Source of the DNA: an uncultured bacterium
Lineage (GTDB): Bacteria; Cloacimonadota; Cloacimonadia; Cloacimonadales; TCS61
Direction: 5' to 3'
Assembly (NCBI GenBank): GCA_965370415.1
Contig: CBDUTJ010000002.1
Span: 40,477 to 104,476 of the forward strand
DNA: 64,000 nt
Both the position numbers and the translations under genes were made by a program. The notes beneath the pieces were generated by a model that worked only from the letters and a program-made list of their open reading frames with translations, was not told the origin of the DNA and made no database searches. This document shows, piece by piece, positions 3 to 50,462 of this stretch. Position 1 is the stretch's first letter, and each line of letters opens with the position of its first letter.

Positions 3-2015
3 CCGGATGCAGATTTTACAGCGGACATAACAAACGGAGAGGTCCCTTTAACGGTTAATTTTACAGACCTTTCTGCCCAAGGTTCGGGAGTAATAGATGA
101 ATGGTATTGGGAATTCGGGGATGGTAATAATTCTTCTCTGCAAGATCCATCTAATGAATTCCAGTTGCCGGGAATTTATACAGTTTCACTTACAGTTACA
201 GATGTTAATGATTCCACAGATACGGAAACAAAGGTGGATTACATCATTGTACATGCTCTGCCTTATAGTGGTCCTGTCTGGCATATATCTACAACCGGTT
301 CGGATGTATGGGGAAACGGATCAACGCAATATCCATTTGCCACTATACAGCATGGAATTAATACAACTTCCAATACAGATACTGTGCTTGTACAGATTGG
401 AACTTATGTGGAAAATATTAATTTTAATGGAAAACTGATTACAGTTGGTTCTTTATTCTTAACCACCCAGGATACAAGCTATATTTCTACAACAATAATT
501 GATGGTAACAGCAGTGGTAGTGTTATAACCTTTGATAATGGAGAGGACTCTACTGCAGTTCTATGTGGATTTACTATTACAAATGGTTCTGCTACTAATG
601 GTGGTGGAATTTACTGTGCTCATTCCAGTCCGAGTTTAGATAATATAACAATAACAGGTAATTCTGTTGATTATGGTGGTGGTGGGATTTACTGTGGTGC
701 TTCCAATCCGAGTTTAGATAATATAACAATATCAGGTAATTCTGCTTCTAATACTGGTGGTGGAATTTATTGTGAATTTTCCAGTCCGAGTTTAGAGAAT
801 GTAACAATAACAGGTAATTCTACTGATTATGGTGGGGGGATTTCCTGTTATGGATCCAATCCGAGTTTAGAGAATGTAACTATATCAGATAATTCTGCTG
901 TTAACGTACCTGGTGGGATTTACTGTTATGATTCCAGTCCGAGTTTAATAAATTCTATTCTTTGGAATAACTCGCCACAAGAGATCTATATTAATTCCGG
1001 TTCTGTTACAGCATCATATTCGGATATTCAGGGCGGTTTTACGGGAACTGGCAATATTGATAGCGATCCGTTATTTGCAGATCCTGGTAATGGAGATTAC
1101 CATTTAACCTGGGCTAATTTCCCAGTCCCGGATGCTACAATGTCTCCCTGCATAGATGCCGGAGATCCGGCTTCACCTTTAGACCCGGATGCTACAATTG
1201 CAGATATGGGAGCTTACTATTTTGATAGATCTCCAGGAGCTCCTGTAATTACGGCTGTTACGGATGTGCCGGATGATCAGGGAAGATATGTTCAGGTTAT
1301 ATGGAACAGAAGTCCTTATGATGCACCCGGTTCACCTGTTATTATAGAATCATATTCAGTGTGGAGATATGATGATATATTTGGTGATAGGGGAATATTT
1401 GAAATATATGAGGATCCCCGGGAAATATTTGAAAAAGCAGCAAAGGACAATGACAAGAATTATTACTGGCAGAGAGATGATGAAATATTAACATTCATAA
1501 CTCAACTTCCGGCAATGGGATTTGCTCAATATTCTGTTGTTGCTCCAACTCTTATAGATTCGAGTGTTGTTTCAATTAATTATTCTGTTTTCAAAGTTTT
1601 TGCTCATACGGATGTAACTTTAATCTATTATCCTTCGCTTCCCGATTCTGGTTATTCGATAGATAACATTGCCCCGGATGAAACACGTGCTTACATTGCC
1701 CAAAATGGAAGTAATATCGGTCTTAGTTGGGATGAAGTGGAATATGGAACTTTCCAGGGGAATTCCTATCCGGAAGTAAATGGTATCTGGTACAAGATCT
1801 ATGCCGGAGACTCACCTGATTTTATTTGTGATGAAGCTCATCTAATAGAAACAGTTACAGATCTGAATTATGATTATCCTCTAACAGGAGAAGAAAAGAA
1901 GTTCTTTAAGGTCGTGGTTAGCGATCAGCCGGAAGCCGGTCGAGCTAGCAACCAATCTACTCCCCTTGGTAAGGGGAGAAAGCCCCGATTTATCGGGGTA
2001 GAGGGGTTTAAATAA
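3..2015 (+). CDS. Secreted PKD + right-handed parallel beta-helix (PbH1) repeat protein; 5' end lies outside the window
   Basis: The frame is open from base 3; track ORF 165..2015 is only the first in-window start. It reads as a PKD domain (VPLTVNFTDLS..WEFGDGNNS..YTVSLTVTD), then a QYPFATIQHGI..TITNG block and five ~23-aa GGGIYC..SSPSL.NVTI.GNS turns. A cap (SPCIDAGDP..PLDPD..DMGAYYF) and an FN3-like C-terminal domain follow. The last 27 codons read into hairpin array A. Confidence 0.85.
   Translation, partial: PDADFTADITNGEVPLTVNFTDLSAQGSGVIDEWYWEFGDGNNSSLQDPSNEFQLPGIYTVSLTVTDVNDSTDTETKVDYIIVHALPYSGPVWHISTTGSDVWGNGSTQYPFATIQHGINTTSNTDTVLVQIGTYVENINFNGKLITVGSLFLTTQDTSYISTTIIDGNSSGSVITFDNGEDSTAVLCGFTITNGSATNGGGIYCAHSSPSLDNITITGNSVDYGGGGIYCGASNPSLDNITISGNSASNTGGGIYCEFSSPSLENVTITGNSTDYGGGISCYGSNPSLENVTISDNSAVNVPGGIYCYDSSPSLINSILWNNSPQEIYINSGSVTASYSDIQGGFTGTGNIDSDPLFADPGNGDYHLTWANFPVPDATMSPCIDAGDPASPLDPDATIADMGAYYFDRSPGAPVITAVTDVPDDQGRYVQVIWNRSPYDAPGSPVIIESYSVWRYDDIFGDRGIFEIYEDPREIFEKAAKDNDKNYYWQRDDEILTFITQLPAMGFAQYSVVAPTLIDSSVVSINYSVFKVFAHTDVTLIYYPSLPDSGYSIDNIAPDETRAYIAQNGSNIGLSWDEVEYGTFQGNSYPEVNGIWYKIYAGDSPDFICDEAHLIETVTDLNYDYPLTGEEKKFFKVVVSDQPEAGRASNQSTPLGKGRKPRFIGVEGFK
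598..955 (+). repeat. Tandem 69-75-nt coding repeats (PbH1 beta-helix turns)
   Basis: Five consecutive units of GGTGGTGGAATTTACTGT..CCAGTCCGAGTTTAGA.AATGTAACAATA.CAGGTAATTCT. Confidence 0.85.
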
Positions 2016-2211
2016 TATTTTCTAAAACAGAAGTTCAAAAAGGAGATTTGAATTAGGTAAGGACAGCTCCTGCCTGCCTATACATCCTGGTTACCAAGCC
2101 CCAGCTTGGTAACTGGTTTCTCATTCCCAAGCTGGGGCTTGGGAACGAGTATAGCTATTATTATGACCGAGACGGTCATTCTTACTGTTTCATTCAATCG
2201 AGACGATTGAA
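1929..2211. repeat. GC-rich mosaic hairpin array A
   Basis: Seven short perfect stem-loops; see findings for hand-counted coordinates. Confidence 0.7.
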
Positions 2212-2279
2212 CGAACTTCTATTTTTTACGGATAGGTGGAAACTACGAAGTATAAATATTGTTGAAGTAAAAAAATAAT

Positions 2280-2388
2280 TTGACACTCAAAAACAAAAAA
2301 CACTTACTTGTTTTGTTCATTGAAGTGTTATTGAAATTTATTACGTTAAGGAGAATTAATGTGTAGATAAACTTTTTCCGGAGGAGTT
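2280..2388 (+). promoter_or_regulatory. Conserved TTGACA box + 7-bp hairpin + SD/mini-ORF leader, copy A (upstream of the 2389 gene)
   Basis: TTGACA at 2280-2285. AACACTT (2299-2305) pairs with AAGTGTT (2323-2329). AAGGAG at 2348-2353. Mini-ORF ATG TGT AGA TAA at 2359-2370. Colinear with copy B at equal spacing. Confidence 0.55.
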
Positions 2389-5441: not shown

Positions 5442-5473
5442 AGAAGCGAAAATTCAAATTTTCGCTTCTTTTT
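5442..5473 (+). terminator. Rho-independent terminator after the 2389..5400 gene
   Basis: 12-bp stem AGAAGCGAAAAT / ATTTTCGCTTCT with loop TCAA, followed by TTTT. Confidence 0.8.
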
Positions 5474-9636: not shown

Positions 9637-9669
9637 ATAAAAAACAAAGCCCCGCTTTGCAGGGCTTTG
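9637..9669 (-). terminator. Rho-independent terminator for the S8 protease gene
   Basis: Stem CAAAGCCC / GGGCTTTG (9645-9669). On the minus strand it is followed by a T-run, seen as an A-run at 9637-9644 on the plus strand. Confidence 0.75.
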
Positions 9670-9679
9670 TCAACAGTAT

Positions 9680-15700: not shown

Positions 15701-16866
15701 GTTCCTGTAACATTTGGGGCTGACATTGAGGTGCCTGGAAGAGTCATATAAGATGAATTGCCGGAATTACTGCAGGAATAAAGATTCCATCCATTTGCAA
15801 CGATATCCGGTTTAATACGTCCATCATCCGTTGGACCCCAACTACTGAAACTGGTCATAACGACATCTGATGGAGAAGTCCACCCTCCTGTAATATCATT
15901 TACCGCACCAACTGTAAGTATATTTTTAGCAACACCTTGTTGTCCAATACAGTCATAACCATCGGTTCCACCATCAGGATCTCGTGATGCTGTGCTCCAA
16001 ACCCATGAGGTTCCATTCCAGACTAAATGATTTCCGGAATAATCATCATTACGATCATTTCCTGATGACTTTACTATTAGATAATGAGGTGCATTATTTG
16101 CAATCTGATCCCAGTCTTCTGAAGATCCATCATAAAATCCAAAAAGATAATCTTCAGTTGTACTAATAGATATATTACCATACCAATACCAATAACCATT
16201 ACTGCTATTGTAAACCCATCCCCGACTCCATCCATATGAGTGGTTTGATAAAGTTAATCCGTTAGCTGCTGCCGTTGACATCTCAGTTTCAGCATCTGTC
16301 CATTCATATGCATTTAGAAGCGCTTCTGGTGCCATACCATGAGCATTAGGTGACTGTCCTTCAGCGATGATTGTACCTGCAACATGGGTGGAGTGATAAT
16401 GTGTAGACCCTGGAGAATCCATTTGGGTTACACGAGTACCTCCTCCATTATCAAATTCCTGGTGAGTAGTTAAAACACCACCGCCATCCCACTCGCCTAT
16501 TAAATAGCCATCCCCTGAAAGATTCAATCCTGAAGAACCACCAACCCATAGGTCATCGGTATTGGTTGTGCGTGCTGCATTCAGGTTAGTGGTTTGATAA
16601 TATTGCGGCATACCGTAGATGTCAATGTATTGAATTTCTCTAACCCCCTGATCAGTTTCTTCCCTGATCATCCAGCCTTTTTCTTTTGCCACTCGTTCAA
16701 CTTCAGCTCTTTTAATTAGAAATTTATGATGAAATTCATCAGCTAGTTTTAACAGTTTTTCTTTATTTACATTTGTTTCTTGGTCCTGGCCTCGGTTTTG
16801 TGCATTTACTATTGTGATCATACTTATAAATAATAATACAATAAATATAAAAATTACTTTTTTCAT
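9721..16866 (-). CDS. Giant secreted S8 subtilisin-like peptidase with GEVED-like, long beta-helical/adhesin, CARDB-like and FN3-like domains
   Basis: AGGAGG before the ATG and a signal peptide. S8 triad contexts are present: EWDGGGV (Asp), HSTHVAGTI (His) and GTSMSAPNVTGT (Ser). YGETEDYTLRV is GEVED-like. About 1400 aa of G/N/T/S-rich repeats follow. The C-terminus reads YKIYRSTDPY..KYFYQVTA plus a basic tail. Confidence 0.9.
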   Translation of the reverse strand: MKKVIFIFIVLLFISMITIVNAQNRGQDQETNVNKEKLLKLADEFHHKFLIKRAEVERVAKEKGWMIREETDQGVREIQYIDIYGMPQYYQTTNLNAARTTNTDDLWVGGSSGLNLSGDGYLIGEWDGGGVLTTHQEFDNGGGTRVTQMDSPGSTHYHSTHVAGTIIAEGQSPNAHGMAPEALLNAYEWTDAETEMSTAAANGLTLSNHSYGWSRGWVYNSSNGYWYWYGNISISTTEDYLFGFYDGSSEDWDQIANNAPHYLIVKSSGNDRNDDYSGNHLVWNGTSWVWSTASRDPDGGTDGYDCIGQQGVAKNILTVGAVNDITGGWTSPSDVVMTSFSSWGPTDDGRIKPDIVANGWNLYSCSNSGNSSYMTLPGTSMSAPNVTGTLAVLQDYYEDLRGGTMSAAAIKGLVINTANEAGPADGPDYMFGWGLLNATGAADLIIMDNTEGGLIVEGILENGQTIDYTYYCDGTTDINVTLCWTDPAATPLSPQLNPTTSMLVNELDLKIYDEAAATYYAWKLNPYSPSAAATHSAENWRDNVEVVNIQSPSAGYYTLRVDHDGSLSGGQQAYALIVTGLTTPPIETYCDARATNEWEYIQNVTMGDIDNTSDLAPGGYANYTGMVTEVSKGSNYTITATLGNAYTGDDVYAWVDWNHDGDFTDTGEDYILGISSAPYSTTISIPSTATLGYTTMRVRMVYSYSQNPCGTSSYGETEDYTLRVLGTPGLWIGTISDDWNNPLNWDDVAVPTSTVDVTIPAGTPYSPVISSGSAVCDNLDLDSGATLSINGMTLVVNGDMYISGEIGMLQDDANINIMGDVAWNSGSSLNVTAYSSYINVYGDWNFNSGANVNPTLGFVDFEGSSSSWIRCYSDNCSFNNLRVYKSGGAMAQVSNLCTEDLVINALTFISSDGIFNSRSDNDIIMRGYFNYYGTFDFTLSANTGSVIFDGNSQSMNKYSTNDGIFNNVVFSSSTGMTIANGGLTAMGNVTINQGFFNPGVDPVYVGGNWTNYIGASGFVEGTGRVIFNGSSGHQYCSSETFNELEVDKSSDALLMDGTNVVCAAYDWTAGAVDVLSGSFTANDLLDNAIQGGFYLNSGGTIDLTNSGTGTYVDLKGDLHIFGGTMTVAGSFCVWPYQEDASIEMSGGILDITSCGISLSSSNTLTESITGGTIRTAYGFTGTRTDFNPTGGTIELYGSTDAIMSMGAGSNFYNVNINKAATDRIEVDSKNKKRIIQDRDGSVIELTRSYTVNATSELDINGDLLIDAGTFNLNGNTVNVGDDVLNYGELTVDGILEISDDFYLYSGSIVDLSGTIHLGTLTGMHGSAIHYSGSTFNQTDGNYYVESIHLYNGSQFNGTGGTTHIYVDGHVVNNNVDIDDPDSYFYNFYVDSGANAALSGCSYDLEVNYSTNLYGLLDINSYTINTLYSNVYGELIIDSGGTVNVTGNGPYFSSGGSLTMISGSELNSEQNIRFYTGTTENVSGGEIFLAGSFSDYNEIFSPTGGSVTFDGSSASDIIGPTAFYDLNIDKTGATVTANSSFSVSNNLDITSGALTLNGYTVDVANDVDVYGTLNVTNPADILNVGNAAYDNLAFRSGSFGNLTAGVVNLSSWLWVDVGGLMTATTGNTINFSGPGITGIQVDAAGSVFGNINIISVNPFRLYSLSSQLIQVDGNFDLQAGNTMEFMNNSMIVHGNFTDDPTSTVYVYDGPVDGGNTNLFSANGNRENQNDISITKNPKNSKDSRSRGGNFEIDTDFTLNGLLDVGDGDVLVHGEFELATTGTLTINGGSFINDESARDRAWRFLQGTFNLSDGLFEITNNSTYFASTATTNISGGTIRTGGAFYGVYTGTFQPTGGIVEIIGGGADNAVYCSNGNYFYDLVINRNPGIFAALMQEIHVQNDLSINSGILSCNFTNDDLYVGGNWTNNVGSGGFVPSTNTVIFDGTGDVSITPGETFYNLTLDKVSSADHLDLFGPVTVGNDLTINPGALYSNDNTISVSGNVTVNSGGVLYMEANSTLEIGAAKSLNVYNGGTLEVLGAPGNLATITHLTSGNYYFNVYSGGTIGAEYGLFEYMTENGVFVWDGGIVDPTYPFNYSIFQNGFVGFATLLLIDNFDDVTITGANFPDASSSDFNVAKTIDQGTITLISATGDFAGPDYEYDLHDLIHWDGYNPDLDITNVIWTDTNPYVCDMITASVTVYNNGNVSISGGTGFYLDLYHNPGSPPAPFETGDQSEYITSGIPAGDFIVVDFDVVNDVVESWNSYIQVDTYEDITELEEGNNVWGPDAITWNPFPVIDDLTIQYNAGTNEVELNWTYPITVDQYKIYRSTDPYDFAGADIFTSSTESYSEIATGIKYFYQVTAERTCTASDNINTKKNQRFRRR

Positions 16867-16977
16867 AAGATCCTCCTAATTAAATCTTTTTACATAAACA
16901 ATTTCTTTGGTATTTTTCCATTAAAAATTCACATCCAACCTAAGATTTTTCAGTTTTCATAATAGTTATCATATTTT

Positions 16978-17050
16978 TTAGTTTTTCCACATTTAATTTT
17001 CCTGGTTCTACATGCTTTTCATAACCATACTTTCGAAAGTTTATTGTCAA
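16978..17050 (-). promoter_or_regulatory. Diverged partial copy of the same leader upstream of the S8 protease gene
   Basis: The minus strand reads TTGACAATAAACTTTCGAAAGT (TTGACA is the reverse complement of 17045-17050). It continues CCAGGAAAATTAAATGTGGAAAAACTAA, with mini-ORF ATG TGG AAA AAC TAA at 16992..16978. Confidence 0.4.
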
Positions 17051-17203
17051 TTGACTCTGCATTTCGACATTAAAAACAACTACCATCATTTCTTCCAAAG
17101 AACAATTTGTACAAAATTATTAAATAATGTCAAATTAATTTTTTTTTGATGATCCATACATCGGTTTTGTAGAAGATACATCCGGTTCATTCGCCGAACA
17201 TAC

Positions 17204-17775
17204 TCTCCTCATGAGGAGATCGTTCCTCTCGTTCTCATCCGGCGACTGCCGGATGAGAATGAAGGTTATATGCAAAACTCCTCTTTTGCGCTCTAACTCA
17301 CCCTGCTGCCTGCACCGCCGTAGTTTTATCGAAGGCGTGTCCCTCTCTTTAACGCTTTGCTCAAATAGAGGGGGTTGAAATTCGTAAAGCGACCAGCTTG
17401 GTCGCTCTCTCGACCTGGCAGGTCGAGTTACATTGAAACACCTTCCGAAGCTTTCTTTCAATTTTTCTGATGAAAGAAGATTCGGAAGGTTAAATGAGTT
17501 TGCATATTTTGAGCTAGAACTTTCCGAATCTCAGTAGGGAGAAATACGTTTTTGGAAGCTTCGGAAAGAATGAGGGCAACAAAAGGTCGAGTTACAAAAA
17601 AGTTTATAGCAAGACTTGACTCGCAACGACCTGTCCGGGCATAATAAAATGAAGACTGAAGTGTGAGTCGAGAATTGATGAATAAAGAATCCTGAACACC
17701 GAACCCTGAACCCCTGGCATGTCGTATGGTATGCTTTTCAACGTTTATTTACCTCATCCAAGCAGCAAAGCTGCT
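17204..17775. repeat. GC-rich mosaic hairpin array B (largest)
   Basis: At least eight perfect stem-loops or palindromes plus a 13-nt direct repeat. Shares modules with arrays A, C and D. Confidence 0.7.
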
Positions 17776-17815
17776 CACCTTCTCTCGGACAAAAAAGTAA
17801 CATAAGAAAAACAAT

Positions 17816-17924
17816 TTGACATATAAAAACAATAAACACTTTCTTGTTTAGTTAATTAAAGTGTTAATTAAATTCATTTTGCCAGGGAGAATTGATATGT
17901 AAACAAACCAAACCAGGAGGAATT
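17816..17924 (+). promoter_or_regulatory. Conserved TTGACA box + hairpin + SD/mini-ORF leader, copy B (upstream of the 17925 gene)
   Basis: TTGACA at 17816-17821. AACACTT (17835-17841) pairs with AAGTGTT (17859-17865). GGGAGA at 17885-17890. ATG TAA at 17897-17902. Confidence 0.55.
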
Positions 17925-19709
17925 ATGTTGAACCTTGTGAAATCCCGTCTGTCAGGGAAAACCTTATTTTTTATTTTTATTTTTTTATATTCATTTCTGT
18001 ATGCCACAATTATTAATGTGCCAACACCTTATGCAACAATACAAGCCGGCATTGACGCTGCTGCCAATGGTGACATTGTTCTTGTACAACCCGGAACTTA
18101 TGTGGAAAACATTAACTACAATGGAAAACTCATTACAGTTGCTTCATTATTTTTAACAACCCAGGATACAAGCTATGTTTCTTCAACCATTATCGATGGG
18201 AACAGTAGTGGCAGTGTTGTTACTTTTGAAAGTGGTGAGGATATTACTGCTATTTTATGTGGCTTTACAATTACTAATGGTCTAGGTGGTGGAATAAATC
18301 CAAATTTTTATGGAGGTGGGATTTTTTGTAATAGTTCCAGTCCGAACCTACAAAATGTAACAATAACAAATAATAGTACTACTTATAATGGTGGTGGAAT
18401 TTACTGTCATACTTCCAGTCCTAATTTAGAGAATGTCATAATATCATTTAATTCTGCTAATTCTCAGGGTGGTGGGATTTACAGTCATTATTACAGTCCG
18501 AGTCTACAGAATGTAACAATATCAGGTAATTCTGCTTCTCAGAATGGTGGTGGAATTTACTGTCAAGGTTCCAGTCCGAGTTTAATGAATGTAACAATAT
18601 CAGGTAATACTTCCAATTATCCTGGTGGTGGTATTTATTGTTATGGTTCCAGTCCGAGTTTAATCAATTCTATTATGTGGAATAACTCACCACAGGAGAT
18701 CTATATTTGGTTGTCCGGTTCAGTAACAGCAACATATTCAGATATAGAAGGCAGTTGGACAGGAACAGGTAATATTGATAGCGACCCATTATTTGTAAAT
18801 CCCAGTAGTGGAAATTACCATTTACAAGCAACTTCTCCCTGTATAGATGCTGGAGATCCGGCATCACCCTTAGACCCGGATGGCACAAATGCAGATATGG
18901 GAGCGTATTACTTTAACCAATATAATGGACCAATCTGGCACATATCCAAAACCGGTTCTGACGAATCAGGAGTTGGTACGGAACAATATCCATTTTACAC
19001 TATACAGCATGGAATTGATTTTTCGACTGATGCAGATACTGTGCTTGTACATCTTGGAACTTATGTAGAAAATATTAATTATATTGGAAAAAACATTACC
19101 ATTGGTTCTTTATTTTTAACAACCCAGGATACATCTTATATTTCATCAACTATTATTGATGGGAACAGTAGTAGCAGTGTTGTAACTTTTGAAAGTGGAG
19201 AAGATTCAACAGCAATTTTATCTGGTTTCACTATTACGAATGGATCTAGTGGCAATGGAGGAGGAATTCACTGTGAAAATTCTTCCAATCCAAGCCTTAA
19301 TAATTTATCTGTTGAAAATAATATTTCTACCGGTCATGGTGGTGGTATCTACTGCTGGAATTCTAATCCGGGTTTAGAGAACATAACCATATCAGATAAT
19401 TCTGCTGATTCTAAGGGTGGTGGGATTTATTGTTATGTTTCCAGTCTAAGTTTAAATAATGTAACAATATCAGGTAATGTTTGTTTCGAAAGTGGTGGTG
19501 GAATTTACTGTGAAAGTTTTTCATTCCTAAGTTTAAATAATGTAATAATTACGAGTAATTTTTCATATAATGAAGGAGGTGGAATTTATTGTCTGTATGC
19601 CGCTGTGAGTTTGGAGAATGCAACCATATCAGGCAATTCTGGCACCACAGGTTATAATATTTACTGTGGATATGGGTCCAATGCATATTTAAAAAATTTC
19701 ATTTTATGA
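17925..19709 (+). CDS. Secreted double beta-helix-module paralog, terminated by an in-frame TGA at a conserved Trp position (likely disrupted gene)
   Basis: AGGAGG before ATG 17925, which is preferred over the track TTG at 17892. Signal peptide, then two consecutive cap-block + PbH1 modules. The ORF stops at TGA 19707-19709, yet family homology continues in the same frame. Confidence 0.8.
   Translation: MLNLVKSRLSGKTLFFIFIFLYSFLYATIINVPTPYATIQAGIDAAANGDIVLVQPGTYVENINYNGKLITVASLFLTTQDTSYVSSTIIDGNSSGSVVTFESGEDITAILCGFTITNGLGGGINPNFYGGGIFCNSSSPNLQNVTITNNSTTYNGGGIYCHTSSPNLENVIISFNSANSQGGGIYSHYYSPSLQNVTISGNSASQNGGGIYCQGSSPSLMNVTISGNTSNYPGGGIYCYGSSPSLINSIMWNNSPQEIYIWLSGSVTATYSDIEGSWTGTGNIDSDPLFVNPSSGNYHLQATSPCIDAGDPASPLDPDGTNADMGAYYFNQYNGPIWHISKTGSDESGVGTEQYPFYTIQHGIDFSTDADTVLVHLGTYVENINYIGKNITIGSLFLTTQDTSYISSTIIDGNSSSSVVTFESGEDSTAILSGFTITNGSSGNGGGIHCENSSNPSLNNLSVENNISTGHGGGIYCWNSNPGLENITISDNSADSKGGGIYCYVSSLSLNNVTISGNVCFESGGGIYCESFSFLSLNNVIITSNFSYNEGGGIYCLYAAVSLENATISGNSGTTGYNIYCGYGSNAYLKNFIL
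18312..18669 (+). repeat. Tandem PbH1 coding repeats
   Basis: Five GGGI(F/Y)C..SSP(N/S)L.NVTI.(G/N)NS turns with near-identical nucleotide cores. Confidence 0.85.
19258..19706 (+). repeat. Tandem PbH1 coding repeats (second module)
   Basis: Six turns. The last runs into TGA 19707. Confidence 0.8.
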
Positions 19710-20564
19710 CCAAATTCTTATAATGGGATTTATGGTTCTGTTACAGCAACATTTTCGGATATTGGAGGTGGTTATACAGAAACAGGTAATATTGATAGCG
19801 ATCCATTATTTGTGAATCCGGCAATCGGAGATTACCATTTACAACCAACCTCTCCGTGCATCGATGCAGGAGATCCTACTTCACCATTAGATCCTGATGG
19901 TACGATAACAGATATGGGAGCTTATTCTTTCCCTCAACCCATACATGCAGATTTTACAACGGACATTAGCAATGGCTATGTTCCCTTAACTGTTAGTTTT
20001 ACAGACCTTTCTGCGCAAGGTTCTGGAGTAATTGATGAGTGGTATTGGGATTTTGGTGATGGTAATAATTCTTCATTGCAGAATCCTTCCAATGAATACT
20101 TATTAACTGGATATTACACAATTTCACTTGCGGTAACCAATATTAACGATTCCACAGATACTGAAACTAAAACGGATTATATAACTGTTTACAGTAGTGA
20201 TCCACCAGCACCACCAACAGATGTAGAAGTAGATATTATTTACCCGGATGCAATAATCTCTTGGAGTGCTGTAGATACGACTATTATTGGTGATCCTGCT
20301 TTAATTGACGGATATGTTGTTCGATATAATGAGACTGGTTATTCAGGAGATGAATATTTTTATTTCTTAGCCTTTACAATAGAAACAATTTATATACATG
20401 AATTTGTTGCTCAATATAGTACCCAAATGTTCTATCACGTTATCGCTATTGCTGCTTTAAGCAGAGAAGAAACAAAATACCTGTTAAGCTTAAATAATTC
20501 ACATACTAAAATGAAATGGGAAGATGTTAAAGAGAAATTGAAGATAAGAAATTTTTCAAAATAG
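19710..20564 (+). pseudogene. Downstream continuation of the 17925 gene (beta-helix cap, PKD, FN3-like), separated from it only by the TGA
   Basis: Same frame as 17925..19709. GSVTATFSDIGGGYTETGNIDSDPLFVNP begins at about 19735, upstream of the track start at 19812. PKD domain spans about 19947-20189. A family C-terminal tag, DKKFFKIVVSDQP-stop, sits in another frame at 20543-20584. Confidence 0.7.
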
Positions 20565-20588
20565 TTGTTAGCGATCAACCGTAAATCT

Positions 20589-20759
20589 GCAAGACTTGAC
20601 TCGTCTCAAAATTTTTGGGATGAGTCGAGAACTGTTATAAAAGAGTATTGTTCTCATCCCATCCGGCAGCTACTGGATTTGGGTAAGTCTAATATATTAC
20701 CTTCCCAAGCGGAAGCTTAGGAAGGAAAATTTAGATGTGTAGGGTTAGCTCTCCGAGCT
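20589..20759. repeat. GC-rich mosaic hairpin array C
   Basis: Shares the modules GCAAGACTTGACTCG..TGAGTCGAGAA, TTCTCATCC..CCGGC and CCTTCC..GGAAGG with array B. Confidence 0.65.
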
Positions 20760-20856
20760 GTCCAATTATCATATGTTTAAAAATTCCTTATAATCCAATC
20801 AACTTAAAGACCCCGAATAATTTCAAACAGGCAATTAGGATTGCGATCCGTTATTT

Positions 20857-22611
20857 GTGGATTTTAATAATAGTGATTACAATCTACAATCAACTTCCCC
20901 GTGTATAGATGCCGGTGATCCTGTATCACCGTTAGACCCGGATGGCACGTTAGTAGAAATGGGGGCTTGTTTTTTTCCTCAGTTTATTATTTCAGATTTT
21001 GCAGTGGACACAACAATTGGATATGTTCCTTTAACGGTTAATTTTACTGACCTTTCTACGCCGGGTACAGGTGTAATTGATGAATGGTATTGGGACTTTG
21101 GTGATGGAAATAATTCTTCTTCGCAGAATCCAACTCATGAATATCCTTTATTGGGATATTATACAGTTTCACTTACAGTAACTAATGATCTTGATTCAAC
21201 AAGTATGGAAACAAAGGTAGATTACATTAAGGTAACTCCTCCTGCTTATGATGGTACTGTATGGCATGTCTCAACAACCGGTTGGGATGCATTTGGAAAC
21301 GGATCAATTCAATATCCATTTGCTACCATTCAACATGGAATTAATACTTCTTCCAATACAGACACTGTGCTGGTGCAGCCCGGAACTTATGTGGAGAATA
21401 TCAATTATAATGGGAAACTCATAACCATTGGCTCTTTATTTTTAACAACCCAGGATACTTCTTATATTTCACAAACAATAATTGATGGAGATACTTTAGG
21501 AAGTGTCATAACATTTGAAAATAGTGAAGATTCAACAGCAGTTTTATGTGGTTTAACAATAACGAATGGTTTGAATGAATATGGTGGAGGGATTTTTTGT
21601 AGTTATTCTAGTCCAGGTTTGAAGTACCTGTCAATAACTAATAATTTAGCTAAATATGGTTGTGGAATTTATTTTTATAATTCCAGCCCGAGTCTACAGA
21701 ATGTAACAATATCAGGTAATTCTGCTTCCGGGATTGAAGGATTTGGTGGTGGTATTTACTGTACTTATAGTTCCAACCCGAGTTTACAGAATGTAACAAT
21801 ATCAGGTAATTCTGCTGTTTATGGTGGAGGGATATATTGTTCTGGAAATTCCAACCCGATTCTACAGAATGTAACAATATCAGGTAATACGGCTTATGTT
21901 GATGGGGGCGGGATTTACTGTGAAAATTATTCCAGTCCAAATTTATACAATGTAACAATATCAGGTAATTCTTCCCAAATTGGTGGTGGAATTTATTGTT
22001 ATGGTAGTGGTTCCAATCCAAGTTTAATTAATTCCATTATGTGGAATGACTCACCCGAAGAGATCTATATAGTTCAAGGTTCTGTTATTACAGCAACCTA
22101 TTCGGATATTGAAGGTGGATGGGCCGGGACTGGTAATATTGATAGTGCCCCGTTATTTGTAAATCCCGGTAACGGAGATTACCACCTGCAGCCAGGATCA
22201 CCATGTATAGATGCCGGAGATCCTGCATCGCCACTAGATCCGGATAGCACAATAGTGGATATGGGAGCTTATTATTTTCACCAGATAATACCTCCTGATC
22301 CACCACAAAATATAACGATCGAAATCATCGGAACGGATGTTCACATCAGTTGGGATGTAGTAACGGGTGCAAATTCGTATAAGGTTTATTCTTCAGATGA
22401 TCCATACACAGGTTTTATAGAAGAAACCTCCGGTTCATTTGCTGGAGAAAGTTGGAGCACTTCAATAATGGAAGTGAAGAAATTCTATTATGTAAAAGCA
22501 AGCACAGAAACAACCAGGTCTAAATATTCTGATTCACAAGATGCTTATCAGCCGGATAGAAAATCGAGAAGATACGATTTGGATAAATTCATAAATAGAA
22601 AGAGAAAATAG
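20857..22611 (+). CDS. 5'-truncated beta-helix paralog (cap remnant, PKD, beta-helix, FN3-like); possible pseudogene or silent cassette
   Basis: The ORF opens with GTG in the middle of the family cap motif. There is no Shine-Dalgarno sequence and no signal peptide. Homology continues upstream through TAG 20836-20838. Otherwise the domains are intact, with six PbH1 turns. Confidence 0.65.
   Translation: MDFNNSDYNLQSTSPCIDAGDPVSPLDPDGTLVEMGACFFPQFIISDFAVDTTIGYVPLTVNFTDLSTPGTGVIDEWYWDFGDGNNSSSQNPTHEYPLLGYYTVSLTVTNDLDSTSMETKVDYIKVTPPAYDGTVWHVSTTGWDAFGNGSIQYPFATIQHGINTSSNTDTVLVQPGTYVENINYNGKLITIGSLFLTTQDTSYISQTIIDGDTLGSVITFENSEDSTAVLCGLTITNGLNEYGGGIFCSYSSPGLKYLSITNNLAKYGCGIYFYNSSPSLQNVTISGNSASGIEGFGGGIYCTYSSNPSLQNVTISGNSAVYGGGIYCSGNSNPILQNVTISGNTAYVDGGGIYCENYSSPNLYNVTISGNSSQIGGGIYCYGSGSNPSLINSIMWNDSPEEIYIVQGSVITATYSDIEGGWAGTGNIDSAPLFVNPGNGDYHLQPGSPCIDAGDPASPLDPDSTIVDMGAYYFHQIIPPDPPQNITIEIIGTDVHISWDVVTGANSYKVYSSDDPYTGFIEETSGSFAGESWSTSIMEVKKFYYVKASTETTRSKYSDSQDAYQPDRKSRRYDLDKFINRKRK
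21583..22035 (+). repeat. Tandem PbH1 coding repeats
   Basis: Six turns. The unit AGTCTACAGAATGTAACAATATCAGGTAATTCTGCT recurs almost verbatim. Confidence 0.85.
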
Positions 22612-22614
22612 TGG

Positions 22615-22978
22615 GGACAGAAAATTGTTCTGTCCGAGATAGGGATGATTCTCCCTGTTGAAATTTACAGCAAAGCTGTATTTCACGGGGTAAACCGGGC
22701 AGTCAGAAAAAGTTTTCAGAATGAAGCAAAAGCTTCAGATTCATTTCTTTCCCATCCTGCAGTTGCCGGATTAAGAAGGAGATTTAAAAGATCTTGTGAC
22801 TTATTTACTCCCCTTTATAAGGGGAGAACTCCGCACCTATTTAGAAGAATTTATTTGAAACAAATAAATAGGTGCTGGACAGAGGGGTTATATTCTTTCT
22901 CCTAAAAATGTTGTGCAAGATTAAAACAATACCTTCCGAAGCAGACAGTGTCCGGCTTTTAACGGAAGTTTCAGAAGG
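22615..22978. repeat. GC-rich mosaic hairpin array D
   Basis: Nine stem-loops. Shares modules with arrays A (ACTCCCCTT..TAAGGGGAGAA), B and C. Confidence 0.65.
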
Positions 22979-22993
22979 AGATAATGTTTATAA

Positions 22994-23746
22994 TTATCTG
23001 TTCCTTTTCGTAGCTATTATCTTCTCAGCTTTTTCCAGATCTTGTGGTGTGTCTATGCCAATTCCTTCATAATCTGTTTCTATCATTTTTATCCTGATAC
23101 CATTTTCCAGCAGGCGGAGTTGTTCCAGTTTTTCTATCTGTTCCAATTTTCCATGCTGCATTTCTACAAAACGGAAAAGCATTTCCCGTCTAAAAGCATA
23201 TATTCCAATATGTCTGAAATAATCAGGTTTTCGTTCTAACTCATTATCCTGTTTAAAAGGAATTATCGAACGAGAAAAATAAAGAGCATAATTGTTTTTA
23301 TCACACACTACTTTCACAGAATTTGGATCATCAAAGCTCTTCTTCATCCGATGCATCAAAGAAGCCACACGAACAGCAGGGTCATCAAAAGCAGCTATCA
23401 GTTTTGTAAGTGGTTCTCTGGAAATGAATGGTTCATCACCTTGAACATTTATCATTACATCAGCATCACTGCAAGAAGGTAATTTCCGGCAGACTTCCGC
23501 AATACGGTCAGTGCCGCTTTCGTGTTTTTTACTGGTGAGAACTACTTTCCCACCAAAGCTTTCGACAGCTTCAAAGATACGCTGGTCATCTGTTCCCACC
23601 ACAACTTCAGCAAATAAACCACTACTTAGCACCCGCTCATAAACATGCTGAATGATACATTTTGTGCCAAGTTTCGCCAGAGGTTTTCCAGGGAATCTGG
23701 TTGATTCGTACCTGGCAGGAATTATAGCAATCGCTTTCATTATCAA
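22994..23746 (-). CDS. kdsB: 3-deoxy-manno-octulosonate cytidylyltransferase (CMP-KDO synthetase)
   Basis: AIIPARYESTRFPGKPLA and a typical KdsB length of 250 aa. Confidence 0.9.
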   Translation of the reverse strand: MIMKAIAIIPARYESTRFPGKPLAKLGTKCIIQHVYERVLSSGLFAEVVVGTDDQRIFEAVESFGGKVVLTSKKHESGTDRIAEVCRKLPSCSDADVMINVQGDEPFISREPLTKLIAAFDDPAVRVASLMHRMKKSFDDPNSVKVVCDKNNYALYFSRSIIPFKQDNELERKPDYFRHIGIYAFRREMLFRFVEMQHGKLEQIEKLEQLRLLENGIRIKMIETDYEGIGIDTPQDLEKAEKIIATKRNR

Positions 23747-23767
23747 ACCTCTCTACCCCGCATCTAT

Positions 23768-24547
23768 TTATTTTTTAATTACCATTTCCATGAATACTTT
23801 GTAACTTCGAAGATTGTCGTGCAGCTCCGAAGAGATAAAACACCTTTTGATTTTCATTTTTATAAGCTTCTTTGTGGTTTCCAAAGCTAATGATTTTTCC
23901 ATCTCTTCATCTATGCTTATCAGTGCAGATTGTACATCTTTTTCCAGGTATTTTGCAATTTCCAGCCGGGCAATTTCTGCTGCACTTTCCCAGGCATTAA
24001 TCAGGTTGGAAGAGCTGCCTGATGCATAACTGATAATATGTGCATTTTCTACAGCAATCTTATCCCTTTCATACCAGTCTGGAAAATTAATTACAAATCT
24101 TTTCTTATATTTTTCAGCAACATTATCATTTTGAAGGGAAAAGAGAGCGAGGTAATAATCAAAAAAGAACTCCTCATCGACCACCTGCAAAGATTCATAG
24201 ATTCTGCGAGTAGTTTCCGGAGAGGCACTTACATTCAAGTAAAATTCTGCTTTTCCGTCACGCAATAGATCTTCAGTAGTAGTGGAAGCAAATTTTTCGA
24301 TGGAATAGGAAGCTTCATTCCTGCTTTTTATAACCGCTGCCATTTGTCTGGCTGCATCTTTCATTTCATCTTCATCGAAGCTTTTCCTGGCTACCCCGAT
24401 GACATAATCTCCAGCAGGAAGTTCGTATACCCAGCCGGGCAAGGACGGATATTCTATTTTATGGATCATTTTTACTTCTTCAAATTCTATTTGCGAAGCG
24501 CATCCCAACAAGATAAGTAACGCAATTACCAACAACGATCTATTCAT
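23768..24547 (-). CDS. Hypothetical lipoprotein
   Basis: Signal peptide with lipobox LLILLGCAS. The stop overlaps the mnmG end region in an operon-like arrangement. No family recognised. Confidence 0.6.
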   Translation of the reverse strand: MNRSLLVIALLILLGCASQIEFEEVKMIHKIEYPSLPGWVYELPAGDYVIGVARKSFDEDEMKDAARQMAAVIKSRNEASYSIEKFASTTTEDLLRDGKAEFYLNVSASPETTRRIYESLQVVDEEFFFDYYLALFSLQNDNVAEKYKKRFVINFPDWYERDKIAVENAHIISYASGSSSNLINAWESAAEIARLEIAKYLEKDVQSALISIDEEMEKSLALETTKKLIKMKIKRCFISSELHDNLRSYKVFMEMVIKK

Positions 24548-50426: not shown

Positions 50427-50431
50427 AAATA

Positions 50432-50462
50432 AAAAAGGAGCTCGATCGAGCTCCTTTTTTTA
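50432..50462. terminator. Bidirectional terminator between rplS and the convergent histidine kinase gene
   Basis: Perfect 18-nt palindrome GGAGCTCGATCGAGCTCC (50438-50455), flanked by an A-run and a T-run. Confidence 0.85.

What the first reader, a model, noticed from the sequence alone, without database searches (positions are those of the whole stretch)
17204..17775. Largest GC-rich mosaic hairpin array fills a ~1 kb non-coding gap between divergent secreted-protein genes
About 1 kb with no credible ORF lies between the S8 protease start (16866, minus) and the beta-helix gene start (17925, plus). Its core is visibly GC-richer than the AT-rich flanks and is a chain of perfectly paired short stem-loops. 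Hand-counted elements are: the 16-nt perfect palindrome TCTCCTCATGAGGAGA (17204-17219); the 12-bp stem TTCTCATCCGGC-GACT-GCCGGATGAGAA (17232-17259); GCGACCA-GCT-TGGTCGC (17389-17405); CTCGACCT-GGC-AGGTCGAG (17409-17427); a 51-nt two-tier hairpin ACCTTCCGAA...TTCGGAAGGT (17440-17490); CTTTCCGAA...TTCGGAAAG (17520-17568); and AGCAGC-AAA-GCTGCT (17761-17775). Several stems are sequence-related to stems in the other three arrays. The CTCATCCGGC family recurs at 20651 and 22751, and the CCTTCCGAAGC family at 20700 and 22932. GCAAGACTTGACTCG...TGAGTCGAGAAYTG occurs at 17609/17664 and at 20589/20621. The xAGC-AAA-GCTx type recurs at 22666 and 22722. Order and spacing differ between arrays, so this is a mosaic of hairpin modules, formally reminiscent of REP/BIME clusters. 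It is not a tandem repeat, CRISPR array or IS. None of the hairpins has a terminator U-tract. I cannot assign it to any named RNA family or mobile element. Nothing comparable occurs in the 41-kb housekeeping part of the window.
Basis: seen in the sequence. Interest (0 to 1): 0.68.

Follow-up and report, generated by a model that had tools for sequence, protein, structure and literature searches.

The report
REP/BIME-like palindrome cluster beside gene remnant
The 0.6-kb GC-rich stretch is a real, far-above-chance cluster of short DNA palindromes that sits in the 3' flank of a deleted surface-protein gene copy in a Cloacimonadota genome, behaves like the REP/BIME repeat clusters of E. coli, and led to a two-hairpin repeat in the sister clusters that is shared by several bacterial phyla.

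Summary
Every listed hairpin is exact. The core has 45-51% GC against 19-33% in the flanks. It holds 4 perfect short-loop stems where shuffles give 0.26. It matches no ORF, tRNA, tandem repeat, U-tract terminator or Rfam family.

New context: 17148-17195 is the 3' remnant of a paralogous beta-helix gene, and 17807-17925 is a promoter/5'UTR module shared by the paralogs. The array is therefore the old 3' flank of a lost gene copy, like the three sister arrays. The one orthologous region found (L006, about 80% identical) keeps both ends but carries different hairpin modules. This shows turnover by whole modules.

Inside the array, 17440-17490 and 17520-17568 are the same stem in opposite orientation, as in BIMEs.

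One shared core, ACTCCCCTT..AAGGGGAG (sister arrays 1957-2012 and 22805-22893), belongs to a covarying two-hairpin element. It has at least 100 extragenic copies in Parelusimicrobium proximum, mostly as inverted doublets. It also occurs in Patescibacteria, Bacteroidales and other Cloacimonadota. It is absent from Rfam and from the papers searched.

The stems at 17204-17775 themselves could not be shown to be dispersed, and no mobilising enzyme was found.

Verdict: a REP/BIME-like palindromic repeat cluster, a new variant of a known kind. Interest is moderate.

The parts
16867..17140 (-). Upstream (promoter/5'UTR) module of the S8 protease gene. It is AT-rich and is not part of the hairpin array.
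   Evidence: It is 80% identical in L006. In L087 it occurs twice at 85-88% identity, upstream of a C25 and an S8 peptidase gene, without any adjoining array.
17148..17195 (+). 3' remnant of a paralogous PMP-repeat/beta-helix gene. It encodes DDPYIGFVEDTSGSFA.
   Evidence: 13 of 16 residues match residues 514-529 of the 20857-22611 protein, E 7e-8. The DNA repeat D8 is 83% identical. The L006 orthologue keeps 35 codons through to a stop: 30/35 identical, E 7e-19.
17204..17219 (.). 16-nt perfect palindrome TCTCCTCATGAGGAGA.
   Evidence: It is absent from L006, where the gene remnant continues instead.
17232..17259 (.). 12-bp perfect stem TTCTCATCCGGC-gact-GCCGGATGAGAA, followed by TGAAGGTTATAT.
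   Evidence: Decayed relatives lie at 20651-20682 and 22753-22771.
17309..17339 (.). 31-nt hairpin-forming insert (CACCGCC..GGCGTG) between CACCCTGCTG and TCCCTCTCTT. The two flanking words are contiguous in L006.
   Evidence: Read. Shared 11-12-mers appear.
17341..17381 (.). CCCTCT..AGAGGG hairpin ending in AGAGGGGGTTGAAAT. Its orthologue in L006 is an intact 11-bp hairpin, TCCCTCTCTTC-aggc-GAAGAGAGGGA.
17388..17427 (.). Two adjacent perfect hairpins: AGCGACCA-gct-TGGTCGCT and CTCGACCTG-g-CAGGTCGAG.
   Evidence: TCTCTCGACCTGGCAG is kept in L006, but there it abuts the promoter module directly. AGGTCGAGTTACA recurs at 17584-17596.
17440..17490 (.). Two-tier hairpin of the CCTTCCGAAGC family, with arms ACCTTCCGAAGC / GATTCGGAAGGT and one G.A mismatch.
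   Evidence: The same arm occurs at 22931-22942, in L087 and in L128. It is a weak, non-significant match to model R1 (9.3 bits, E 1.2).
17520..17568 (.). The same CCTTCCGAAGC-family stem in the opposite orientation, with arms CTTTCCGAATC / GCTTCGGAAAG. The mismatch is now T.C, and the interior differs.
   Evidence: 17556-17566 is the reverse complement of 17443-17453.
17609..17677 (+). Long-range stem GCAAGACTTGACTCG .. TGAGTCGAGAATTG. It has two G.T pairs on the + strand.
   Evidence: Both arms are identical at 20589-20603 and 20621-20631, with a shorter loop there.
17761..17775 (.). AGCAGC-aaa-GCTGCT hairpin.
   Evidence: CAGCAAAGCTG also occurs at 22668-22678.
17807..17925 (+). Promoter/5'UTR module of the beta-helix gene. 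It marks the end of the array.
   Evidence: It is 85% identical to 2271-2330, upstream of the 2389 gene, and is conserved in L006.
1957..2012 (+). Sister array 1 (1940-2270): a bona fide copy of the cross-phylum two-hairpin unit. It consists of H1 CTCCCCTT/AAGGGGAG, H2 CCCCGA/TCGGGG and the tail AGAGGGGTTTAAA. ORF 165-2015 reads through it.
   Evidence: R1 scores 29.1 bits, E 1e-7. Sequence.
2090..2145 (.). Sister array 1: an inverted pair of one hairpin unit, GTTACCAAGC-ccca-GCTTGGTAAC and TTCCCAAGC-tggg-GCTTGGGAA.
   Evidence: 2127-2142 is the reverse complement of 2094-2109.
20565..20860 (.). Sister array 3, downstream of the 19812-20564 gene. It shares three module types with 17204-17775.
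22805..22893 (+). Sister array 4 (22612-22993), between the convergent beta-helix gene and kdsB. It holds a second copy of the two-hairpin unit, with a long AT-rich H2 and the tail CAGAGGGGTTAT.
   Evidence: R1 scores 26.4 bits, E 8.5e-7. It is orthologous in L087 (97% over 97 nt) and in L128 (same H1 and tail, different H2).

Best explanation
17204-17775 is a cluster of short GC-rich DNA palindromes of the REP/BIME kind, that is, repeat modules that accumulate outside genes. It lies in what used to be the 3' flank of a paralogous surface-protein gene. Only 48 nt of that gene survive, at 17148-17195.

Shown:
- The stems are real and far above chance.
- Module types are shared with the 3' flanks of three other genes of the same cluster.
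- Units occur in both orientations.
- The orthologous region of a relative differs by gain or loss of whole hairpin modules, while the flanking promoter modules stay put.
- One module type of the sister arrays belongs to a covarying, Watson-Crick-only, extragenic, doublet-forming repeat family. It has at least 100 copies in an Elusimicrobia isolate and scattered copies in several other phyla.

Inferred:
- The modules are DNA-level elements recognised as hairpins. They spread partly by an unidentified trans-acting enzyme and partly by duplication and recombination among the paralogous gene cassettes.
- They persist because intergenic 3' flanks tolerate them.
- At this particular site they now sit between two divergent promoters. 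They are most likely carried along neutrally there rather than serving these two genes.
- In the sister arrays, which are still behind intact genes, they could protect or punctuate mRNA 3' ends, as REPs do.
For: Stems and significance:
- The stems are exact and enriched.
- Both strands fold equally well, and the short stems have no G.U pairs.
- There is no coding similarity in any frame to 1.3 Mb of relatives plus the window.

Position in the locus:
- A gene remnant lies at the 5' edge.
- A shared promoter module lies at the 3' edge.
- Arrays 1, 3 and 4 all start at or near a paralog's stop codon.

Repeat-like behaviour:
- Module sharing between arrays.
- Inverted unit pairs 17440-17490 / 17520-17568 and 2090-2113 / 2124-2145.
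- L006 keeps CACCCTGCTG, TCCCTCTCTT and TCTCTCGACCTGGCAG but otherwise has different hairpins. The window has a 31-nt hairpin insert and about 380 nt of extra modules.
- L087's array next to kdsB joins a 68-nt piece of window array 1 (97% identical) to a 97-nt piece of array 4 (97%). The flanking 6.3 kb are 88.7% identical.

The ACTCCCCTT..AAGGGGAG unit:
- 94 genomic stretches match the pattern, where about 1 was expected.
- Its architecture is conserved.
- Covariation: 5 of 14 pairs show double changes, 93.6% of cells are paired against 81.9% in shuffles, and there is 1 G.U in 644 cells.
- Model R1 gives 228 hits at E below 1e-3 in 759 kb.
- In P. proximum, 102 of 108 H1 hairpins are extragenic although 84% of the sequence is coding. 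They occupy 43% of convergent, 26% of tandem and 11% of divergent spacers. 36 of 49 occupied spacers hold 2 H1 hairpins, opposite in orientation wherever both could be oriented. One spacer holds 7, largely alternating.
- Copies in other Cloacimonadota sit next to unrelated genes.
Against: - For the stems inside 17204-17775, recurrence is shown only within this 23-kb gene cluster and its orthologues. Segmental duplication alone could explain their sharing.
- Model R1 does not significantly match anything inside 17204-17775 (best hit E 1.2). The tail motif alone is not enriched in the window.
- In Cloacimonadota the exact H1 pattern is low-copy: one site in each of the three Cloacimonadota MAGs that were hit.
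- No RAYT or other Y1 transposase, integrase or IS lies in the window. None is recurrent next to 184 unit-flanking ORFs, and none was found by tblastn with recalled Y1 sequences.
- A paralog in relative L095 is followed by an ordinary U-tract terminator and no array.
- The site is a divergent spacer, which REPs usually avoid. This is explained only by invoking the lost gene.
Confidence: 0.6

Rival explanations
1. A structured RNA. On this reading the array, like its sisters, is or was a long 3' UTR or a separate non-coding RNA of the + strand. Its stem-loops would stabilise, process or terminate the surface-protein mRNAs.
For: - The arrays begin at stop codons of + strand genes.
- The 17609-17677 stem and the 20658-20682 stem need G.T pairs that work only on the + strand.
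- Two array pieces are better conserved in L087 than the neighbouring genes.
- The fold is far more stable than shuffles.
Against: - At 17204-17775 the upstream gene is gone and no promoter is evident. One 10/12 sigma-70-like match falls within chance expectation.
- The minus strand folds equally well.
- The short stems are perfect Watson-Crick palindromes, and units occur in both orientations.
- The related dispersed family has 1 G.U in 644 pair cells.
- The orthologue L006 has different modules.
- Rfam gives nothing.
- True terminators in this genome carry U-tracts, and these stems do not.
Confidence: 0.15
2. Pseudogene and recombination debris. On this reading the stretch is what remains of a deleted paralog and its flank, and the palindromes are by-products with no identity of their own.
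For: - A gene remnant lies at 17148-17195, and a longer one lies in L006.
- The cluster is rich in paralog duplications, truncations and rearrangements.
- Other assemblies break here.
Against: - The 580-nt core has no six-frame similarity to any paralog or to 1.3 Mb of related DNA.
- Decay would erode stems, yet 4 perfect stems occur where 0.26 are expected.
- The core is GC-richer than either genes or spacers.
- The modules recur as discrete hairpins. One type recurs in unrelated loci and phyla.
Confidence: 0.12
3. A regulatory palindrome field. On this reading the palindromes are operators for dimeric DNA-binding proteins, or sites for gyrase or nucleoid proteins. They would control or insulate the divergent S8 protease and beta-helix promoters.
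For: - The position is between two divergent promoters.
- There is a 16-nt perfect palindrome and several others.
- REP-type sequences are known to bind gyrase and IHF in E. coli (established knowledge, not tested here).
Against: - The promoter-proximal modules are conserved without the palindromes. L087 has the S8-type upstream module twice with no array, and L006 has different hairpins.
- The same module types lie behind stop codons in arrays 1, 3 and 4, not at promoters.
Confidence: 0.06

Closest known systems
REP elements, REPIN doublets and BIME clusters of Enterobacteria and Pseudomonas (review of families: Di Nocera et al. 2013, PMC3733652)
   Same: - Short GC-rich palindromes located outside genes.
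- Clusters with units in alternating orientation, joined by other short motifs.
- A preference for spacers that contain gene 3' ends, shown for the related family in P. proximum.
- Stems kept by compensatory change.
- Presence/absence differences between relatives.
   Different: - There is no consistent GTAG or CGTC tag. The position next to H2 reads GTAG, GAAG, GGAG or AGAG.
- No RAYT gene was found.
- The array at 17204-17775 is built from at least six different stem types rather than one or two.
- Copy number in this genome is unknown.
- The related H1-H2-tail unit is nearly identical across phyla, whereas classical REPs are mostly species- or genus-specific.
MITEs / palindrome-associated transposable elements derived from IS families
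   Same: The head-to-head doublets of the H1-H2-tail unit have inverted ends (AACCCTACCCC .. GGGGTAGGGTT). They are about 110 nt long, non-coding and dispersed. One Cloacimonadota doublet (L172) is flanked by a 13-nt direct repeat.
   Different: - No parent IS or transposase was seen next to any copy.
- Target duplications are not seen consistently.
- Single units are common.
- The stems in 17204-17775 have no recognisable terminal repeats.
Mobile GC clusters of yeast mitochondrial DNA and Rickettsia palindromic elements (from established knowledge; not tested here)
   Same: GC-rich palindromic modules are embedded in AT-rich spacers. One copy (1957-2012) is read through by an ORF and adds a C-terminal tail to the protein, as Rickettsia palindromic elements do.
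   Different: The sequences and hosts are unrelated. This is an analogy of behaviour only.

Membership tests
REP/BIME | Short (about 20-50 nt) GC-rich imperfect palindromes. | tested here: met
   Seven stems were verified. The enrichment is 4 stems against 0.26 expected.
REP/BIME | Extragenic location, mainly behind genes (tandem and convergent spacers). | tested here: met
   Arrays 1, 3 and 4 follow stop codons. 17204-17775 follows a 3' gene remnant. The related family in P. proximum occupies 43% of convergent, 26% of tandem and 11% of divergent spacers.
REP/BIME | Many dispersed copies of the same unit in one genome. | not testable with these tools
   Only 64 kb of the source genome is available. 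Copies of the 17204-17775 stems are confined to the four arrays and their orthologues. For the H1-H2-tail unit the feature is met in P. proximum. That unit is low-copy in the Cloacimonadota genomes.
REP/BIME | Clusters with units in alternating orientation. | tested here: met
   17440-17490 against 17520-17568, and 2090-2113 against 2124-2145. L120 holds 7 units, largely alternating.
REP/BIME | A conserved unpaired GTAG or CGTC tag at one foot of the hairpin (PMC3733652). | tested here: inconclusive
   GTAG occurs in a subset of P. proximum units, but the position varies (GAAG, GGAG, AGAG) and part of it pairs within H2. No tag is evident on the stems of 17204-17775.
REP/BIME | A cognate RAYT (Y1 transposase) gene in the genome. 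| tested here: inconclusive
   None is found among the window ORFs scanned by Pfam. No ORF family recurs beside the units. tblastn with Y1 sequences recalled from memory gave nothing better than E 0.18. Whole genomes were not searched.
MITE | Terminal inverted repeats plus target-site duplication, and a related autonomous IS. | tested here: inconclusive
   Doublets have inverted ends. There is one 13-nt flanking direct repeat, in L172. No IS was found. Nothing of this kind is seen at 17204-17775.
Intrinsic terminators | A GC-rich stem followed by a U-tract. | tested here: not met
   There are 0 terminator-like sites in 16700-18100. Genuine terminators of this genome do have U-tracts (5442-5469, 9644-9670, 50431-50460).
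CRISPR array / tandem repeat | Regularly spaced direct repeats. | tested here: not met
   The direct-repeat and TRF scans are empty.
Integron attC array | attC sites behind promoterless cassettes, with an integrase nearby. | tested here: not met
   The genes here are large and carry their own conserved promoter module. No integrase lies in the window. attC models themselves were not run.
Any Rfam family | A score at or above the family's gathering threshold. | tested here: not met
   Window. Region at E up to 10. 18 loci with the H1 unit. A P. proximum array.
Pseudogene | Translated similarity to an intact gene. | tested here: not met
   This is met only for 17148-17195. For the 17195-17806 core, six-frame tblastn is negative.

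The most novel reading that the evidence does not exclude
The H1-H2-tail unit consists of CTYCCCTT-loop-AAGGGRAG, a freely covarying second hairpin, then AGGG(G)TT. It could be an undescribed REPIN-like mobile palindrome whose almost invariant first hairpin and tail are shared by Elusimicrobiota, Patescibacteria, Bacteroidota, Cloacimonadota and others. That would imply a conserved, horizontally travelling partner protein, or a conserved host machine, that reads this exact hairpin. On this reading the Cloacimonadota arrays, including 17204-17775, are lineage-specific offshoots or graveyards of such elements. Their shared modules could also serve as recombination points that shuffle, truncate and delete the neighbouring surface-protein gene cassettes.
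Probability: 0.3. Interest if true: 0.75.

Novelty: new variant of a known kind. Interest (0 to 1): 0.57.

Why it matters
REP-type repeats have been studied almost only in Proteobacteria, where each family is tied to one lineage and to its own RAYT transposase. This case differs in two ways. First, a REP/BIME-like mosaic sits in an uncultivated Cloacimonadota genome, tied to a rearranging surface-protein gene cluster. Second, it led to a two-hairpin repeat whose first stem and tail are nearly identical in several phyla, while its second stem varies by compensatory change. If the cross-phylum sharing reflects a common trans-acting partner, that partner is unknown. It is also directly approachable, because Parelusimicrobium proximum is a cultured isolate with a complete genome that carries at least 100 copies. 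For annotation, these arrays explain contig breaks, unannotated GC-rich spacers, and a spurious C-terminal extension of a predicted protein.

Tried and rejected
- Rfam at gathering score (window, 18 loci) and at permissive E-values (region, P. proximum array) gave only chance miRNA-like hits.
- Orthologous comparison through 80 metagenome loci found with the S8 N-terminus failed. The relatives are too distant, synteny is not kept, and no module is shared.
- Exact-protein look-ups returned mostly the same strain (L001-L005, L088). The useful relatives were L006, L087, L095 and L128.
- Homologues of the paralog C-terminal domain (L089-L096, L191-L193) showed no arrays. They showed ordinary terminators or out-of-frame T9SS tail remnants.
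- Six-frame tblastn of all four arrays found no coding signal.
- I tested whether tail-like words in 17204-17775 (TGAAGGTTATAT, AGAGGGGGTTGAAAT, GGAAGGTTAAAT) mark degenerate H1-H2-tail units. The word is not enriched in the window (22 hits against 39 expected), and R1 scores only 9.3 bits there. This was rejected as evidence.
- A second covariance model for the Cloacimonadota subtype was not built, because the 10-sequence alignment was structurally inconsistent.
- The search for a transposase found nothing by Pfam on window ORFs, by clustering of 184 ORFs beside units, or by tblastn with recalled IS200 TnpA and YafM. The weak hits lie inside large unrelated ORFs.
- Plasmid BLAST gave no match. 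Viral contigs gave one hit.
- Literature searches by taxon, by keyword and by sequence words found no description.
- CRISPR, tandem repeat, tRNA/tmRNA, integron and terminator readings were rejected.
Full report
SOURCE AND SETTING

Exact-sequence look-ups of ten window proteins place the window on a 120-kb contig of a Candidatus Cloacimonadota MAG. The left 23 kb hold a cluster of secreted-protein genes:
- Several paralogous PMP-repeat/beta-helix/PKD genes: 165-2015, 17925-19709, 19812-20564 and 20857-22611.
- A 1003-aa protein with no Pfam match.
- A cyclase/TPR protein.
- A 2381-aa S8 protease on the minus strand.

From 23 kb onward the genes scanned by Pfam, up to about 58 kb, are housekeeping-type or without a family match, apart from a C25 peptidase at 28898-33907. 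None is a transposase or integrase.

- The core has 43-51% GC, against 19-33% in the flanks.
- 17195-17806 contains 4 perfect stems of at least 7 bp with short loops. Dinucleotide shuffles give 0.26, and 0 of 300 reach 4.
- The four arrays are 2.5% of the window but hold 12 of its 44 such hairpins.
- The whole stretch folds about 5 standard deviations better than shuffles, equally on both strands.
- The shared words are real. CCTTCCGAAGC with up to 1 mismatch gives 7 hits against 0.47 expected. GCAAGACTTGACTCG and TGAGTCGAGAA are exact in two arrays.
- There is no terminator-like site, tandem repeat, tRNA or Rfam family.
- An independent assembly carries the same 8 kb at 100% identity, so this is not an assembly artefact. 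Another assembly breaks on both sides of this stretch, on one side inside a repeated beta-helix gene.

- 17148-17195 encodes DDPYIGFVEDTSGSFA. This matches 13 of 16 residues at positions 514-529 of the 20857-22611 protein.
- In a relative about 80% identical (L006), the same remnant runs on for 35 codons to a stop (30/35 identical, E 7e-19).
- 17807-17925 is a promoter/5'UTR module 85% identical to the one upstream of the 2389 gene.
- 16867-17140 is the S8 upstream module. It is conserved in L006 and is present twice in L087.

The layout is therefore: paralog 3' end, hairpin array, promoter module, next paralog. This is the same layout as arrays 1 (1940-2270), 3 (20565-20860) and 4 (22612-22993). 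Here the upstream gene has simply been lost. The 580-nt core shows no similarity in any frame to the paralogs or to 1.3 Mb of related DNA.

THE ARRAY EVOLVES BY WHOLE MODULES

L006 keeps CACCCTGCTG, the TCCCTCTCTT hairpin (there an intact 11-bp stem) and TCTCTCGACCTGGCAG. Otherwise it differs:
- Between the first two words the window has a 31-nt insert that is itself a hairpin (17309-17339).
- After the third word the window has about 380 nt of further modules. In L006 that word abuts the promoter module directly.
- L006 has about 240 nt of other hairpins instead.

Two more species of the genus, about 89% identical over 6 kb, carry the orthologue of array 4 next to kdsB:
- L087 joins a 68-nt piece of window array 1 (97% identical) to a 97-nt piece of array 4 (97%). 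This is better conserved than the neighbouring genes (88.7%).
- L128 keeps the same first hairpin and tail but has a different second hairpin.

Arrays are not obligatory. A full paralog in L095 is followed by a T9SS-tail remnant and an ordinary U-tract terminator.

INTERNAL GRAMMAR

- 17440-17490 and 17520-17568 are the same stem in opposite orientation. The single G.A mismatch of the first reappears as T.C in the second, and the arm sequences swap sides.
- In array 1, 2090-2113 and 2124-2145 are likewise an inverted pair, with complementary loops ccca and tggg.

Alternating orientation of one unit, joined by other short motifs, is the defining look of BIMEs.

A SHARED CORE LEADS OUTSIDE THE PHYLUM

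The pattern TACTCCCCTTNNNAAGGGGAGAA has 20 specified bases, so about one chance hit is expected in 596 Gb. It matched 94 stretches.

Where the matches lie:
- 60 stretches lie in the complete genome of Parelusimicrobium proximum, spread from 16 kb to 1808 kb.
- Others lie in another Elusimicrobia MAG, in several Patescibacteria (Peribacteria, Parcubacteria, Gracilibacteria), in Bacteroidales (Paludibacteraceae, Segatella copri), and in MAGs labelled Chloroflexi, Nitrospirae, Riflebacteria, cyanobacterial (Pelatocladus) and Acutalibacteraceae.
- Three lie in Cloacimonadota MAGs.

Architecture and covariation:
- The matches share a larger architecture. H1 is CTYCCCTT-loop-AAGGGRAG. A second hairpin H2 has free sequence. 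The tail is AGGG(G)TT, usually followed by AAAT.
- On 46 aligned units, H1 has one pair that switches C-G to U-A in 15 sequences without a single mispair.
- Four of the six H2 pairs show double changes.
- 93.6% of cells pair, against 81.9% after shuffling and at most 62% after sliding.
- Only 1 of 644 cells is G.U. This points to a constraint that acts on DNA, or on both strands, rather than on one RNA.

Distribution:
- A covariance model (R1) finds 228 copies at E below 1e-3 in the 759 kb fetched.
- In the P. proximum blocks, 102 of 108 H1 hairpins are outside ORFs although 84% of the sequence is coding.
- They occupy 15 of 35 convergent, 30 of 115 tandem and 4 of 37 divergent spacers.
- 36 of 49 occupied spacers hold two H1 hairpins, opposite in orientation wherever both could be oriented. 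One spacer holds seven, largely alternating.
- This is REP/REPIN/BIME behaviour as summarised by Di Nocera et al. 2013 (PMC3733652).
- No ORF family recurs beside the units. No Y1 transposase was detected. Rfam, plasmids and the literature searches gave nothing, and viral contigs gave one hit.

HOW THIS BEARS ON 17204-17775

- R1 matches the window significantly at 1957-2012 (29.1 bits) and at 22805 onward (26.4 bits). These lie in arrays 1 and 4, not inside the reported coordinates. The best hit there is 17452-17495, at 9.3 bits and E 1.2.
- Tail-like words that follow three stems of the array are not statistically meaningful.
- The other stem families of the array were found only in this cluster and its orthologues.
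- In other Cloacimonadota the H1-H2-tail unit sits in unrelated contexts. In L172 it lies between a PhoH/PIN gene and alanine racemase. In L122 it lies behind a glycosyltransferase gene. So at least that module type is not tied to the paralogs.

I therefore class 17204-17775 with its sister arrays as a REP/BIME-like palindrome cluster. I do not claim that its own stems are dispersed repeats.

MECHANISM

Shown:
- Palindromes far above chance.
- Module sharing between arrays.
- Inverted unit pairs.
- Module-wise turnover between relatives.
- Position in gene 3' flanks.
- A related family that is dispersed, extragenic and covarying.

Inferred:
- The modules are hairpin-forming DNA elements. They spread partly through an unidentified enzyme and partly by duplication and recombination of the paralogous cassettes.
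- They are tolerated in 3' flanks.
- At this site, stranded between two divergent promoters after loss of the upstream gene, they are probably neutral passengers.

Rivals:
- A + strand structured RNA. A few G.T pairs fit only that strand, and some pieces are well conserved. But there is no promoter, the symmetry is Watson-Crick, and the orthologue differs.
- Simple pseudogene debris.
- An operator or insulator field. But the promoters are conserved without it in L006 and L087.

VERDICT

It is a new variant of a known kind. The most interesting product is the cross-phylum H1-H2-tail repeat, which deserves its own follow-up in the cultured P. proximum.

Noticed in passing
window 1916-2015: ORF 165-2015 runs past the family's usual C-terminus (..KKFFKVVVSDQP, as in the 19812-20564 protein) straight through the H1-H2-tail repeat. 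This adds EAGRASNQSTPLGKGRKPRFIGVEGFK to the predicted protein. The tail is repeat-encoded, in the manner of Rickettsia palindromic elements, or it is an annotation artefact.
   Followed up: partly
window 2271-2389 and 17807-17925; L006 4750-4865: A module of about 120 nt (AATTTGACA.. to the start codon) is 85% identical between paralogs and is conserved in the relative. The paralogs were apparently duplicated together with their promoter and 5' UTR.
   Followed up: partly
L087 6544-6883 and 12900-13272 (match window 16828-17196): In a related species the S8-type upstream module, together with the paralog 3' remnant, occurs twice. One copy lies in front of a C25 peptidase gene and one in front of an S8 gene. 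The whole beta-helix gene block of the window is absent there.
   Followed up: partly
window 22859-22889 and 23746-23776; L128 5648-5671: A 31-nt inverted repeat (81% complementary) brackets kdsB. The second arm overlaps the kdsB ribosome-binding region. It resembles the second-hairpin arm plus tail (..TAAATAGGTGCTGGACAGAGGGGTT) of the repeat in array 4.
   Followed up: no
L095 9440-9530; L193 515-700; window 22560-22611: The paralogs end with ..DKFINRKRK and a stop. In L095 and L193 the DNA just behind the stop still encodes, in another frame, the end of a T9SS C-terminal sorting domain (..YFYKMEAGDYQKVKKIILLK). In the window this tail is gone and array 4 sits in its place.
   Followed up: partly
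L100 6000-6125 and about 25 other P. proximum loci: A second repeat, TTTTGATTGTGTTCTACGAACACTACAACRTATCAAAATT, is itself a nested hairpin and directly follows many H1 hairpins. P. proximum spacers are therefore mosaics of several module types.
   Followed up: no
L172 3300-3460: A tail-to-tail pair of units is flanked on both sides by the 13-nt direct repeat CATTGGAACGAGA. This may be a target duplication or a local duplication.
   Followed up: no
L106, L117, L127, L155, L156, L177, L189 (bin.101, RUG334), L151 (Riflebacteria): This sub-family shares the Cloacimonadota arrangement: TA-H1-GAA, then H2, then CAGAGAGGTTT. Several copies (L155, L177, L189) also share about 50 nt of upstream sequence, which suggests a longer repeated element in those genomes.
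   Followed up: no
L002 start and L003 end (window about 16930 and 19200): In a second sample's assembly the contigs stop on either side of this stretch, about 65 nt upstream of the S8 start and inside a beta-helix gene. The repeats of this gene cluster probably break short-read assemblies.
   Followed up: no
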